From Eledone cirrhosa (taxonomy: Eukaryota), in NCBI GenBank assembly GCA_964016885.1, contig OZ024742.1:335358001-335422000 (forward strand): a stretch of DNA of 64,000 nucleotides. Direction: 5' to 3'. The number at the start of each line of letters is the position of its first letter. Position 1 is the stretch's first letter. The notes below the pieces were generated by a model, which worked only from the letters and a program-made list of their open reading frames with translations, searched no databases and had not been told where the DNA came from. This document shows, piece by piece, positions 2,507 to 60,652 of the stretch. The position numbers and the translations under genes are program-made.

Positions 2507-2759
2507 GTATGGTGAACTAACTGTTGTGTTACCACTTCTACCTAACTCGTCCCATGGACTGAGTGCTCTACCACTACGGATATTACCTTCCAGTGTTCTA
2601 CCTATATATATATATATATATATATATATATACACACACACACACATATATATATATATATATATATATATATATATATATATATATATATATATATAAT
2701 TCAGCGAGAATCGTATTTCGGCTGGTAGAAAAAGCGAAACGAAACGCAAAATCATAGAA

Positions 2760-3900
2760 ATGCGGTAGTGGTAGTGTATGTGGTAGTGTAGGTGGTAGTG
2801 TAGGTGGTAGTGTAGGTGTTGGTGTAGGAGTTGGTGTAGGTGGTAGTGTATGTGGTGGTTTGGATGTTGCTGTATGTGATAGTGTATGTGGTAGTGTAGG
2901 TGGTAGTGTAGGTTTTGGTGTAGGTGTTGGTGTAGGTGTTGGTGTAGGTGGTAGTGTAGGTGTTGGTTTGGATGATGCTGTATGTGGTAGTGTAGGTGGT
3001 AGTGTATGTGTTGGTGTAGGAGTTGGTGTAGGTGGTAGTGTAGGTGTTGGTTTGGATGATGCTGTATGTGGTAGTGTAGGTGGTAGTGTAGGTGTTGGTG
3101 TAGGAGTTGGTGTAGGTGGTAGTGTAGGTGTTGGTTTGGATGATGTTGTATGTGGTAGTGTATGTGGTAGTGTAGGTTGTAGTGCAGGTGTTGGTGTAGG
3201 AGTTGGTGTAGGTGGTGGTGTATGTGGTGGTTTGGATGATGCTGAATGTGGTAGTGTATGTGGTAGTGTAGGTGGTAGTGTAGGTGGTAGTGTAGGTGGT
3301 AGTGTAGGTGTTGATGTAGGTGGTAGTATATGTGGTGGTTTGGATGATGCTGTATGTGGTAGTGTATGTGGTAGTGTAGGTGGTAGTGTAGGTGGTAGTG
3401 TAGGTGGTAGTGTAGGTGGTAGTGTAGGTGGTAGTGTAGGTGTTGTTGTAGGTGGTAGTGTATGTGGTGGTTTGGATGATGCTGTATGTGGTAGTGTATG
3501 TGGTAGTGTAGGTGGTAGTGTAGGTGTTGGTGTAGGAGGTGGTGTATGTGGTAGTGTATGTGATGCTGTAGCTGTTGGTATAGGTGGTAGTGTATGTGGT
3601 GGTTTGGATGATGATGTATGTGGTAGTGTATGTGGTAGTGTAGGTGGTAGTGTAGGTGTTGGTGTAGGAGGTGGTGTATGTGGTAGTGTATGTGATTTTG
3701 TAGCTGTTGGTGTAGGTGGTAGTGTAGGTGTTGATGTAGGAGTTGGTGTAGGTGGTAGTGTATGTCATAGTGCAGGCGTTGGTATAATTAGTAATGTAGT
3801 GGTGGTATAGCTGGTATAGGTGGTGGTGTAGTGGTAGAGGTGGTGGTATAGTCAATGATGTAGTTGTTAGTGTAAATGGTGGTGTATATGGCAGTGTATG
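2760..3900. repeat. 12-bp minisatellite (GTAGGTGGTAGT variants) with irregular higher-order blocks
   Basis: Direct inspection; a TTGGATGATGCT variant recurs every 60-130 bp. It explains the TTTY and GVG ORFs. Confidence 0.95.
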
Positions 3901-4356
3901 TGGCTAGAGAGGGGAGGGTGTAGGTGGTAGTATATTTAGTAGTAGTAGTAGTAGTAGTAGTGTGTGAGAGAGAGTGTGTGTGTGAGAGAGTGTCTGTGTG
4001 TGTGCGTGTGTGTGTGAGTGTGTGTCTATGTCTGTATATGTATGTGTGTACCTGTGCGTATATATGTGTGTGTGTGTGTGTATATATGTGTGTGTGTATG
4101 TATGTGCGTATGTCTGTGTGTCTGTCTGTATGTATGTGTATGTGTGTCAGTGTGTGTGTGTGTCTTGACAGAGGTTGTGGTGGAATGGGAAGCTAATATT
4201 ATACGGTGAAGACAAACAGATGTTTGTTGACTGTTTAAATCGGTTGAAGAGACAACCGGAAGTTGTTAACAAACGACAGATCTTGTGTTCATTATCAATT
4301 GATATGGAATCGGTAAATTGTCCTCCAGTGATAGAAAGGGGGGGATGTGTGAGTAA

Positions 4357-4972
4357 TAAATAATTGTTTCTACTTTAGGCGGCACAAGACCACAATTTGG
4401 GGGGAAAGGGAAAGTCGATCAAATCGATCCTAGTGTGTTACTGGTACTTTATTTTATCGAACCCGTAAGGATGAAAAGCAAAGCTAACCTTGGCAGGATT
4501 TGAACTCAGATGTTAAAAGGCTGCAACTCTATGCCGCGAAGCAGGGTGTCCGACGCTCTACCGAGACTGCCAATCCACCGTGTGTGTAATCAATAATTGT
4601 TTCTACTTTTGGCACAAGGCCAGCAATTACCCAGTACATTACTGGTGCTTTAATTTAACGACCCCATAAGGATGAAAGGCAAAGTTAACCTCGGCGGTTT
4701 TTGAACTATGAACGTAAAGGGCCATAACTCTATGCTGCAACGCATGGTCCCTGACGCTCTATACTTTGCAGCATAATGAGTAATAAATAATTGTTTCTAC
4801 TTTAGGCACAAGGCCAGCAATTTTCAGTGCATTACTGGTACTTTATTTTATCGACCCTGTAAGGATGAAAGGCAAAGTCAACCTCGGCGGGATTTGAACT
4901 CAGATCGTAAAGGGACGTAACTATGCTGGAAAGCATGGCGTCCGACCCTCTACTGATACTGCCAATCCACCG
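4357..4972 (-). mobile_element. Three tandem tRNA-derived SINEs (Meta-domain-like core, AAT tail)
   Basis: Reverse complement of the consensus GGCGGTGGATTGGCAG...GAGTTCAAATCCCGCC...GCCTTTCATCCTTACGGGGTCGATAAAATAAAGTACCAG...GTAGAAACAATTAT. Further copies at ~5322-5467 (-) and ~5730-5897 (+). Confidence 0.9.
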
Positions 4973-57861: not shown

Positions 57862-57940
57862 TCAATATACACGCAAACGCTCGTGTTGACAGACGTTGAA
57901 AACACATTTAGACACTCGTATGAACATTTATATGATTGTA

Positions 57941-58869
57941 CTAGCAGTAAAGCCCGGCGTTGCTCGGGGCTGCTCAGTAGCTGTGTTAAAGTTACAATGT
58001 TAAGTTCCTTTCTTGGCTTAAAAACTGTAGAGTCTGCAGTGTAGACTTTCATGTGGTACCTTTGATTAATATTGCCTCAACCAACAGTATGCTTTATGAA
58101 GTTAAGAAAACATAACCATAACCCGAATGTTAAAACAAAAGAGGATGCTGGGGATTAAAACTGCTCTGGTAATCTATTAACAAAAATAGAAAATGTAAAC
58201 ACTGCAACACTTGTCTCAGAGAAAAACATCAGCGTAACCAAACAAAATATCAGTTATTTTGAAACAAAGAAATTGGATGGACATGAAAAACCAAAAAATA
58301 AATGCGTAATCTGTCTGTCGTTTAAAATCATTCCTTCTAAATGAAAATCTCATAAGCAATGCTTTTTTTACAAAATATTTGCTTGTTTTATGGTGTATTC
58401 AAATAGGCTTGTTTTCAAGTAAAAATATTGTTTTAAAAGACTTTTTAATAGAACTGAAGCAAAATGGAAGCTTAATGTTGAAATTTCGAACTCATGAATT
58501 TTGCAGGTTAAAATTTTGCTGGCTCGAAAACTGTTCGCATATTTTTGTACTTTTGCACGCGTCGTTTATACGTAACATAAATAGATAAGCAGACGCCATA
58601 AAAGGGAAATAACTCGTCTCTCATCTTTATTTATACATTTGAACTGAAAAATCAATACATTACAAATTCGATTTTTGCACTTGGTGTGGGTCGATTTGAA
58701 AATTGTTTTGACCGATCTCTCCGCCGGACCTTCATCTATAAGTGTAGCAATTTCACCGAAATTTGAACGTACGGTTTAGGAGGAGATGTGTGCCGACCAT
58801 TTTAGTAGACAGACAGACAGACAGACAGACAGACAGACGGACAGACAACCTCAGTTTTAGATATATAGA
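57941..58869 (-). mobile_element. Complete non-autonomous Helitron
   Basis: Minus strand A|TCTATATATCTAAAACTGAGG ... CCGAGCAACGCCGGG...CTAG|T: canonical TC/CTAG ends in an AT target with no TSD. Confidence 0.88.
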
Positions 58870-60189
58870 TTATATAAGTATAGCGAACATATCGACATAT
58901 CGGACAAATGATTAGATAAGAGCTACATTGAGTTGGGGGAAAGGTAGAGAAGGAAAGAATAAGATGGAGGATGTAAAGGTAATATGGTCGTAGTCAATGA
59001 GTTAATGTTAATATAATACTGTTATATCCATCAGTAATTTATTTATCCTTATTCTTCGACAAGATGGCGGTGTCGCTAGAGCCACGAATTAAATACCTCG
59101 ATATATATTCCGGCTCTCTGTGTCATGAGTTTAAATCGGACAGAGGTCAAATTTGCATTTCATTCTTTTGTGGTTGATAAAGTACCAGTCAAGGAGTAGG
59201 ATGGTTGGATCGGCCTGATTATTATAGCGTTGGATGTGATGTTTTGTAGTATTTGATTCAGTTATGTGTGTTCTCAGTTCAAACCCCGCTCCCTTCTGTC
59301 AGGAGCTGCAATCGGAAAACCAAATGGAAGCAATGTTTTATAGAATTATTTGTAGAATTAGCTATTTTATTTGACTGAGTAAGATGTTTCCTTTGTCCGA
59401 TCAGACGGTCGTCTTCTTTCCCTTCGTAAATTATTCTGCTTTATCTAACACTGCTTGTGTGATACTGGTGGTCTCTTCTGGTCTTTTATTTCCCATATAT
59501 ACTTTAAAAGAGCTGTGATATTGTCAACACGGAAGTGACAAAATTAGTTGTAATGATGCAACTTTTGAAAGAGTGCTCCATAAGGCCCAGCGTAGCCTGT
59601 TGATATGTTGCTAGTGGAGACATTAGAAAGATAGACGACAATGTTTTTCAAAGTTCTATATTTCGACAATTGCATATCGACTCCCTTTACCCTGCATTTC
59701 TTTGATATGGTTTCACGTCTCAGCTCTTATAAGAGCTATTATAAAAGGAGATGAAGCCCAGCTTAAAATGACTGAAACCATTTAAAGACTAAAAGCGTGT
59801 GTGTGTGTGTGTGTGTGTGTGTGTGTGTGTGTGTGTGTGTGTGTGTGTGTGTGTGTGTGTGTGTGTGTGTGTGTGTGTGTGTGTGTGTGCGTGCGCGTGT
59901 GTGTGTGTGTGTGTGTGTGAGTGTGTGTGTGTGTGTGTGGATGCAGCATGACCTAATGATTAAGAAGTTCGCTTCACGGTCCTTATGTTCCAGGTTCGAT
60001 CCCACTGCGTGGCATCATGGGTAAATGTCATTGCAGCGACTGTACCAGTCACTCAAGCGGCCATCAACGTTGTGGAATACTCAGCCATTTGCAAATGAAA
60101 TTCAGGAGCAGGCTGAGACACACATTGTTGAAACTGACCAAGGATCGTTTCATATATATATATATATATATATATATATATATATATAT

Positions 60190-60652
60190 ATAGGAAAAGA
60201 GTCAGAACCCCGGCGGATGAGCTCCGGCCGTTTCGACAGCTGGATCCGAACTGTTCGGATCTAGCTGTAGAAATGGCCGGAGCTCAGCCGTCGGGGTCCT
60301 GACTCTTTTCCTATTATCCACTCTACTACCATAAATATCGAGTACTCTGGTGCGTTATGGTCCACCTGGTTTCTTACCACACTTTCTTTGTTATATATAT
60401 ATATATATATATATATATATATATATATATATATATATATATATATATATATATATATATAGGAACAAGTAAGACCCCGACAGCAGAGCTCAAGCCGTTT
60501 CGACAGCTAATTCTGGACTCAATTAGCCGTCAAAACGGCTTGAGCTCTGTCGTCGGGATCTTACTTGTTCCTATTACCCACTCTATTACCCTAAGTATTG
60601 AGTACTTTGGTGCGTTATGGTCCATCTGGTTCCTTATCACATTTCCTTCGTT
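60190..60652 (+). mobile_element. Half-HHR fold-back elements, copies C (60190-60392) and D (60460-60652)
   Basis: Short arm, apex, long arm and 80-bp tail; each copy lies between (TA)n tracts. Confidence 0.88.

What the first reader, a model, noticed from the sequence alone, without database searches (positions are those of the whole stretch)
2544..60607. Shared 3' stem-loop YACTC-(n)-GAGTRCT near the (TA)n junction of unrelated families
Seen: GAGT(G/A)CT(C/T) lies ~30-75 nt inside the 3' TA junction at 2561 (+), 7445 (-), 10444 (-), 13911 (+), 16509 (+), 20193 (+), 34335 (+), 60340 and 60600 (+), and in the copies at 37237 and 54522. In most cases an upstream ACTC can pair with it across a variable insert: AACTC-gtcccatggact-GAGTG; TACTC-cactactttgtt-GAGTG; CACTC-tattaccctaagtatt-GAGTA; TACTC-tagacg...cgctctatt-GAGTG. 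Inference: a conserved cis signal by which one PLE enzyme recognises its template RNA, analogous to LINE/SINE 3' stem-loops. I do not know of a description of it.
Basis: partly seen in the sequence, partly recalled or inferred. Interest (0 to 1): 0.8.

Follow-up and report, generated by a model that had tools for sequence, protein, structure and literature searches.

The report
Paired hairpins flag Penelope priming sites
The motif is half of a small bulged hairpin kept, usually in two copies, in the leader of Hydra-type Penelope jumping genes from several animal groups; their insertions end a few bases before either copy, so the hairpins likely tell the element's enzyme where to start copying and would explain the long-puzzling 'tail' of these elements.

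Summary
The motif is the 3' strand of a hairpin: RCTC, a variable covarying upper stem, a 2-nt 3' bulge, GAGY, then RCTY. It is enriched before (TA)n genome-wide (32 of 115 sites, about 6 expected). It also lies in 51 of 78 marine-metagenome elements of the same clade.

Every carrier that could be tied to an ORF is a Hydra-clade Penelope-like element, so the families are divergent relatives, not unrelated. The hairpin is not 3'-terminal: it opens the 5' leader of the next tandem unit and usually has a second copy 55-83 nt downstream.

Insertion ends fall about 5-11 nt before hairpin 1 (tail-less ends) or before hairpin 2 (tailed ends), so tail length equals hairpin spacing. Likely mechanism (inferred, untested): each hairpin docks the RT/endonuclease and sets one of the two internal reverse-transcription starts known from a lizard Poseidon element, whose binding motif was not defined.

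This scan had seen Penelope fold-back insertions in other genomes, but not this motif. Eight literature searches and Rfam found no description of it.

The parts
2463..2602 (+). Tailed 3' stub of Hydra-clade family F1: minimal type I hammerhead 2469-2506, tail-less end site about 2536-2538, hairpin 1, tail ending at (TA)n
2545..2568 (+). Hairpin 1 of F1 (ACTC/GAGT, 4-bp upper stem, 1-nt bulge, then GCTC)
7445..7488 (-). Hairpin 1 of family F6, an ORF-less tandem unit of about 0.6 kb with a degenerate hammerhead-like core; other copies show hairpin 2 just after the tail end
10444..10487 (-). Hairpin 1 of family F7 (7-bp upper stem, 2-nt bulge); hammerhead core at 10563-10599(-)
13894..13918 (+). 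Hairpin 1 of family F3b; hammerhead core starts at 13789
16493..16516 (+). Hairpin 1 of family F12 in a short stub; hammerhead core seen upstream in other copies; no ORF link found
17072..20259 (+). Large fold-back insertion of family F3: tail-less inverted arm ending near 17072, Hydra-type endonuclease C-terminus 18308-18463, long 3' UTR, hammerhead core at 20071, tailed arm
20177..20200 (+). Hairpin 1 of F3
34335..34342 (+). 3' strand only of the F9 hairpin; the 5' strand is lost in this copy at an inversion junction and intact in other copies
37238..37437 (-). F2 mini fold-back (tail-less arm plus tailed arm); hairpin 37282-37309
49335..49374 (-).
54524..54717 (-). F2 mini fold-back; hairpin 54568-54595
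54843..55301 (-). Tail-less F1 copy with endonuclease C-terminus and hammerhead, ending 8 nt before where hairpin 1 would start
60193..60391 (+). F2 mini fold-back; hairpin 60320-60347
60462..60651 (+). F2 mini fold-back; hairpin 60580-60607

Best explanation
The motif is half of a covarying bulged hairpin kept, usually twice, in the 5' leader of Hydra-clade Penelope-like retroelements, insertion ends fall a few bases before either copy, and each hairpin likely binds the element's RT/endonuclease and so would fix one internal start of reverse transcription. Shown: the hairpin, its pairing in the leader, the two fixed classes of insertion end, tail = stretch between the hairpins, and head-to-head pairs of one tailed and one tail-less arm in which either can be longer. 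Inferred: on a tandem read-through (or circular) RNA the protein, perhaps as a dimer, grips hairpins 1 and 2. The two cut (TA)n strands anneal to the UA-rich linkers 5-11 nt 5' of each hairpin, and two cDNAs run 5'-ward through the hammerhead and 3' UTR. They join head to head. ORF-less relatives that keep both hairpins would be moved in trans.
For: Covariation with sequence-only anchors. In 13 genome groups 36 of 39 upper-stem positions pair at bulge 2, against 23.7+-2.2 shuffled (0 of 20,000), with other registers at chance. In metagenome leaders 101 of 138 pairs are Watson-Crick, against 51.5+-5.5. The lower stem changes on both sides (ACTC/GAGT here, GCTC/GAGC in 45 of 46 metagenome cases, TCTC/GAGA in F6 hairpin 2). 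Position: tail-less ends cluster at -5 to -9 from hairpin 1 in F1, F2, F3, F3b, F4, F7, F11a-c and F12, although the hammerhead core lies 66-139 nt away. In full-length F1, F11a and F11b copies tailed ends lie mostly 6-11 nt before hairpin 2. In metagenome loci 14 of 19 genuine ends lie within -10..+1 of a hairpin, against 2.4 expected. TA peaks at -6 (23 of 44). Independent priming: 94 of 154 inverted pairs are tailed plus tail-less, 1 is tail-less twice, and in 19 of 94 the tail-less arm reaches further 5'. Precedent: two internal starts bound the tail in lizard Poseidon, both strands are extended, and the binding motif is only hypothesised (PMC11167929).
Against: No binding or priming experiment exists for any Hydra-clade element. 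F10 has no canonical second hairpin and scattered tail-less ends. F12 read-through copies show no clear hairpin 2. F6 gave no tail-less end among 22 and F9 only 3 of 31. 12 of 42 metagenome clusters with a long enough leader have no anchored motif, and only 16 have two. 5 of 19 metagenome ends are not at a hairpin, and some loci are near-identical. Hairpin 2 of F1 and F11 spans a 70-100 nt loop and was read by eye. Isolated folding favours the lower stem strongly in only 4 of 13 groups (probability about 0.9 or more; below 0.2 in 4). G-U versus A-C asymmetry is too small to name the folding strand (9 vs 3). F9 and F12 have no ORF link, and F7 only one probable link. A hammerhead-bearing TA-targeting family at 29985-30200(-) has no such hairpin.
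Confidence: 0.68

Rival explanations
1. The hairpin is read in DNA (single-stranded cDNA or extruded), and the GIY-YIG endonuclease cuts a few bases 5' of it to resolve the intermediate, giving the tail-less end.
For: Craig et al. ascribe the tail to EN-mediated resolution (PMC8557442 passages). Frangieh et al. cite that D. virilis EN needed the tail sequence to recognise plasmid DNA. Covariation cannot tell RNA from ssDNA, and the strand test was inconclusive.
Against: Tail-less arms often hold sequence absent from the tailed arm (19 of 94; L154 and L182), so they are not trimmed copies of it. Tailed ends also track a hairpin, hairpin 2, that is not in the inserted DNA. Both end types show the same TA microhomology and GA stutter.
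Confidence: 0.14
2. The hairpins serve translation, autoregulation, transcription or hammerhead folding in the leader; priming simply uses UA-rich linkers that happen to precede them.
For: Hairpin 2 lies 23-72 nt before the ATG and hairpin 1 about 70-100 nt after the hammerhead core in metagenome loci. The RCTY tail is conserved in sequence. Lizard hammerhead cleavage needs the protein.
Against: The ORF-less F6 unit keeps both hairpins. Offsets of ends to the hairpins are tight across unalignable families, while the distance to the hammerhead varies. A binding site could do both jobs.
Confidence: 0.12
3. One reading: a 3'-terminal LINE/SINE-like stem-loop by which one enzyme picks the 3' end of RNAs of unrelated families.
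For: In genomic stubs the motif does sit 41-83 nt inside the 3' junction. F6 is non-autonomous.
Against: The tail runs on into the leader and ATG in 9 of 30 F1 5' loci, and likewise in F10, F11a and F11b. About half of the ends stop before the hairpin. Families have their own divergent Hydra ORFs.
Confidence: 0.06

Closest known systems
Hydra clade of Penelope-like elements (Craig et al. 2021, PMC8557442; saw section 11, passages, and supplement parts 1, 2, 52, 53 of 59)
   Same: C-terminal GIY-YIG-type EN, CxCx5C linker, CxxC/CxH around E and N, no CCHH, RWK and DKT motifs, canonical hammerhead, (TA)n targets, inverted 5' copies, one-sided tail.
   Different: The paper gives no leader hairpin (0 occurrences of 'stem-loop' in the main text) and ascribes a 30-40 bp tail to EN resolution. 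Here tails are mostly 55-100 nt and match hairpin spacing. The motif is visible by eye in 3 of its 6 Hydra consensus sequences, as a variant in a fourth, and is not clear in two.
Poseidon PAc of Anolis, internal initiation at two sites (Frangieh et al. 2024, PMC11167929; read parts 1-3 of 4, no supplements)
   Same: Two internal RT starts bound the tail; both target strands are cut and extended; the hammerhead is dispensable; a dimer is predicted.
   Different: Different clade. Starts lie in an AC-rich stem-loop inside the ORF, and the binding motif was only bracketed to 172 nt. No repeated, cross-family conserved structure was reported. Here TA microhomology at both starts is likely.
3' stem-loops of stringent LINEs and partner SINEs, and the R2 3' UTR (recalled, not read here)
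   Same: A small structured RNA element with a conserved core and variable loop, thought to recruit the RT and shared with non-autonomous partners.
   Different: Those lie 5' of a single 3'-terminal priming site and are copied from it. This one lies 3' of the start it tracks, in the leader, and is duplicated.
Non-LTR retrozymes (PMC7229834, passages; bioRxiv 10.64898/2026.07.22.740005, part 1 of 5)
   Same: ORF-less tandem units with type I hammerheads proposed to be moved by Penelope-like elements; F6 resembles them.
   Different: No recognition motif is given in the parts read. The F6 unit is about 0.6 kb and its hammerhead core is degenerate.

Membership tests
Hydra-clade PLE | Single RT plus C-terminal EN ORF with CxCx5C linker, CxxC/CxH flanking E and N, no CCHH | tested here: met
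   F1 ORF in L106, L104, L112 against section 11. CxC-type linker or EN end also seen for F2 and F3. No phylogeny was built; Pfam scan gave no family.
Hydra-clade PLE | RWK motif and DKT in place of DKG | tested here: met
   DKT in F1; LRWR/MRWK in F1 and F11, IRWR/IRWS in F10; R and W invariant in alignment A2
Hydra-clade PLE | Type I hammerhead in the pLTR | tested here: met
   Cores by pattern in F1, F2 (variant), F3, F3b, F4, F7, F9, F10, F11b, and F12 in other copies; degenerate in F6. Cleavage not tested; no Rfam hammerhead among the 150 of 299 rows shown.
Hydra-clade PLE | (TA)n targets, tandem pLTR, inverted 5' copy, one-sided tail | tested here: met
Hydra-clade PLE | ORF link for each window family | tested here: inconclusive
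   Linked: F1 (82 loci), F2 (3), F3/F3b (3). Probable: F7 (L237). None: F9, F12. ORF-less: F6.
LINE/SINE 3' stem-loop | Located at the RNA 3' end, 5' of the single priming site | tested here: not met
   Leader location, two copies, ends 5' of it
LINE/SINE 3' stem-loop | Bound by the element's RT and required for retrotransposition | not testable with these tools
   Needs in vitro binding and priming assays
LINE/SINE 3' stem-loop | Shared with non-autonomous partners | tested here: met
   F6 tandem unit without ORF keeps both hairpins in 3 of 30 loci that read through; the partner enzyme was not identified
Known Rfam RNA family | Match to an Rfam model | tested here: not met
   Window and 8 leader-bearing loci: only simple-repeat miRNA-type noise and one tRNA

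The most novel reading that the evidence does not exclude
Hydra-clade Penelope elements use two copies of one bulged RNA hairpin as a ruler for a dimeric telomerase-related RT: each subunit docks on one hairpin and primes one target strand a fixed few bases upstream. The tail would be programmable by hairpin spacing, and any RNA given two hairpins could be inserted into (TA)n in trans.
Probability: 0.45. Interest if true: 0.8.

Novelty: new variant of a known kind. Interest (0 to 1): 0.68.

Why it matters
How Penelope-like RTs choose their template, and why insertions carry a one-sided tail, are stated open questions (PMC8557442, PMC11167929). This gives a specific clade-wide RNA structure of about 25 nt, with a quantitative rule (start 5-11 nt before each hairpin; tail = spacing) that can be tested directly in the published in vitro assay. 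It also supplies a marker for element boundaries and non-autonomous partners in invertebrate genomes; one family alone gives about 55,000 pattern hits in this genome. Because these RTs are the sister group of telomerase, an RNA element that positions the template is of wider interest (the comparison with telomerase template-boundary elements is recalled, not tested).

Tried and rejected
Chance: rejected.

One old alignable family: rejected at the nucleotide level, though the ORFs are homologous.

Snap-back copying of the tailed cDNA as the source of the tail-less arm: rejected for 19 of 94 pairs.

Self-complementary 8-mer as a dimer signal: dropped; F10 has GAGTACCT, and 13 of 46 metagenome cases do not end in RCTY.

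5' ends piling up at the hammerhead cut: single examples exist, but no peak in F1 or F2 (sample biased to long copies).

Folding strand from G-U versus A-C: 9 vs 3, inconclusive; the shuffle printed understates the variance and is not used.

Naiad or Chlamys membership: the ORF has a C-terminal EN. Six 9-mer searches of the supplement gave 4 of 7 hits in the Hydra file and 3 in what look like coding regions elsewhere (line breaks can hide matches).

End counts for references F5, F8 and F13 were dropped because the references included microsatellite flank. 17 of 36 metagenome rows were dropped as contig ends or read-through.

Viral contigs: no relatives. Sequencing runs: no RNA holder listed.

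Literature searches and searches of earlier scan notes found no description of the motif. Repbase/Dfam entries, subscription journals, supplements of PMC11167929 and bioRxiv supplements were not seen and could mention it.
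Full report
Setting. The window lies in a 3.0-Gb animal genome rich in (TA)n; its SINE-like repeats look cephalopod-like (recalled, not tested). The genome could only be sampled: 11 own-genome searches and 99 fetched stretches.

1. Observation. All 11 sites are present; 11 of the 15 distinct GAGTRCTY sites in the window lie 41-83 nt before a TA run. Outside the window, 32 of 115 GAGTRCT sites in 590 kb lie 25-90 nt before a TA/TC run, against a 5.4% background. 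A structure descriptor gave 36 of 94, with reversed and complemented controls at 1 of 32 each, and 13 hits on the wrong side of a run. One fixed-spacer pattern has 55,110 hits against 330 reversed.

2. The true motif. It is RCTC, an upper stem of 2-7 bp with a loop of 2 to about 100 nt, a 2-nt 3' bulge (mostly TT, TC or TA; 1 nt in F1), GAGY, then RCTY. With sequence-only anchors, 36 of 39 upper-stem positions pair across 13 groups at bulge 2, against 23.7+-2.2 shuffled; bulges 0, 1, 3, 4 and 5 are at chance. Flanks are not alignable between groups: 5 of 120 pairs have z>4, four of them within F3 or F11.

3. What carries it. Copies of the 2561 family (F1) extend into an ORF with the Hydra-clade signature of Craig et al.. 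F2 (37289, 54575, 60340, 60600) and F3/F3b (20193, 13911) have divergent Hydra-type endonuclease ends 1-1.7 kb upstream in 3 loci each. F10, F11a and F11b lead into Hydra N-termini. F7 (10451) has one probable link, F9 (34335) and F12 (16509) have none, and F6 (7452) is an ORF-less tandem unit of 580-600 nt. Hammerhead cores lie 66-139 nt upstream. A hammerhead-bearing, TA-targeting family at 29985-30200(-) lacks the hairpin, and its clade is unknown.

4. Beyond this genome. An alignment of 66 of 308 homologs retrieved 78 marine-metagenome loci of unknown hosts. The hairpin is in 51 of 78. There are 60 hits in 21.8 kb of leaders (reversed 0, antisense 8; a few sites are counted twice), 20 in 29.9 kb of 3' regions, and 19 in 161.6 kb of ORFs. 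After clustering (50 clusters, 42 with enough leader), 30 have an anchored motif and 16 have two, 55-83 nt apart; 101 of 138 upper-stem pairs are Watson-Crick against 51.5+-5.5. The pair count on 32 descriptor-selected hairpins agrees but leans to the structure. A model built from these 32 alone ranks seven first-reader sites first in the window, 20193 tenth and 49335 eleventh, and misses 2561, 7452 and 34335. By eye, published Hydra consensus sequences from a coral and a sea cucumber hold the motif, twice at the 5' end of Hydra-1_Ajap; a sea-louse one holds a variant; two do not clearly hold it.

5. Position. The tail is the start of the next unit's leader: in 9 of 30 F1 5' loci it runs through an internal TATATA to the ATG. 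Insertion ends are bimodal. Tail-less ends peak at -8/-6 (F1, 54 of 127 ends), -8 (F2, 56 of 202), -5 (F3, F3b, F4), -6 (F7, F11b, F11c) and -7 (F11a, F12) from hairpin 1; F10 is scattered, F6 showed none of 22 and F9 3 of 31. Tailed ends lie mostly 6-11 nt before hairpin 2 in F1, F11a and F11b, and just before it in F6. F10 has only a degenerate second hairpin, and F12 none that is clear. In metagenome loci 14 of 19 genuine ends lie within -10..+1 of a hairpin, against 2.4 expected: 6 before the second of two, 3 before the first, and 5 with one hairpin called. TA microhomology pulls these offsets towards zero, and some loci are near-duplicates.

6. Mechanism. Of 154 inverted pairs, 94 join a tailed and a tail-less arm, and in 19 of 94 the tail-less arm reaches further 5', so both ends are independent starts. 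This matches lizard Poseidon, where two internal starts bound the tail and the protein-binding motif remains undefined (PMC11167929); an earlier scan note pointed me to that paper. The simplest reading is that each hairpin binds the protein and sets one start at the UA-rich linker just 5' of it (TA peak at -6 in 23 of 44). Binding, dimerisation and the RNA nature of the fold are inferred. Most cDNAs cross the hammerhead cut site, so the template is likely uncleaved or circular. Rivals are DNA-level recognition by the endonuclease (0.14), a translation or ribozyme-related role (0.12), and a 3'-terminal LINE-like signal (0.06).

7. Novelty and verdict. The elements, their fold-backs and two-site initiation are known. 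The conserved paired hairpin, and the rule that the tail equals hairpin spacing, were not found in eight literature searches, Rfam or earlier scan notes; Repbase/Dfam and several supplements were not seen. Verdict: a real, clade-wide cis element and a new variant of retroelement template signals, which makes an open question directly testable. Interest 0.68; confidence in the mechanism 0.68.

Noticed in passing
window 9968-10302 and 12976-13239: Fold-back family with a short tail (37-40 nt) and no RCTC/GAGY hairpin. The 9968 copy holds a tRNA-like sequence (10083-10154, called tRNA-Ser by ARAGORN; Rfam tRNA 39 bits) in its loop, possibly a tRNA-headed element moved by a Penelope-like enzyme.
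   Followed up: partly
window 14467-16495 (-): Frames of 487 and 192 aa that resemble a Helitron-type PIF1 helicase region (resemblance recalled, not scanned); the 16509 stub sits right beside it.
   Followed up: no
window 29985-30200 (-): Young family (97-98% identity) with a minimal hammerhead, one fixed 3' end at (TA)n in 29 of 30 ends, a long CA-rich upstream region and no hairpin; clade unknown.
   Followed up: partly
window 50499-51816 (-) and 25046-25837 (-): Further decayed Hydra-type ORF pieces, 27-32% identical to the F1 protein.
   Followed up: no
L002-L030, F1 junctions: (GA)n/(TC)n stutter between (TA)n and the element at both tailed and tail-less ends, suggesting slippage at initiation like telomerase repeat addition.
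   Followed up: no
L013, window 13098-13101 centre, F2 loci L120-L199: Fold-back centres are often perfect palindromes at natural 4-nt self-complementary words or inside hammerhead stem II, as expected if two cDNA 3' ends anneal.
   Followed up: partly
window 4586-4972, 6551-6961, 28529-29305 and others: Abundant SINE-like repeat of about 195 bp, often in tandem.
   Followed up: no
window 37486-37703 and 37751-38034: Long inverted repeat followed by a hammerhead core and a TA-ended tail without the motif.
   Followed up: no
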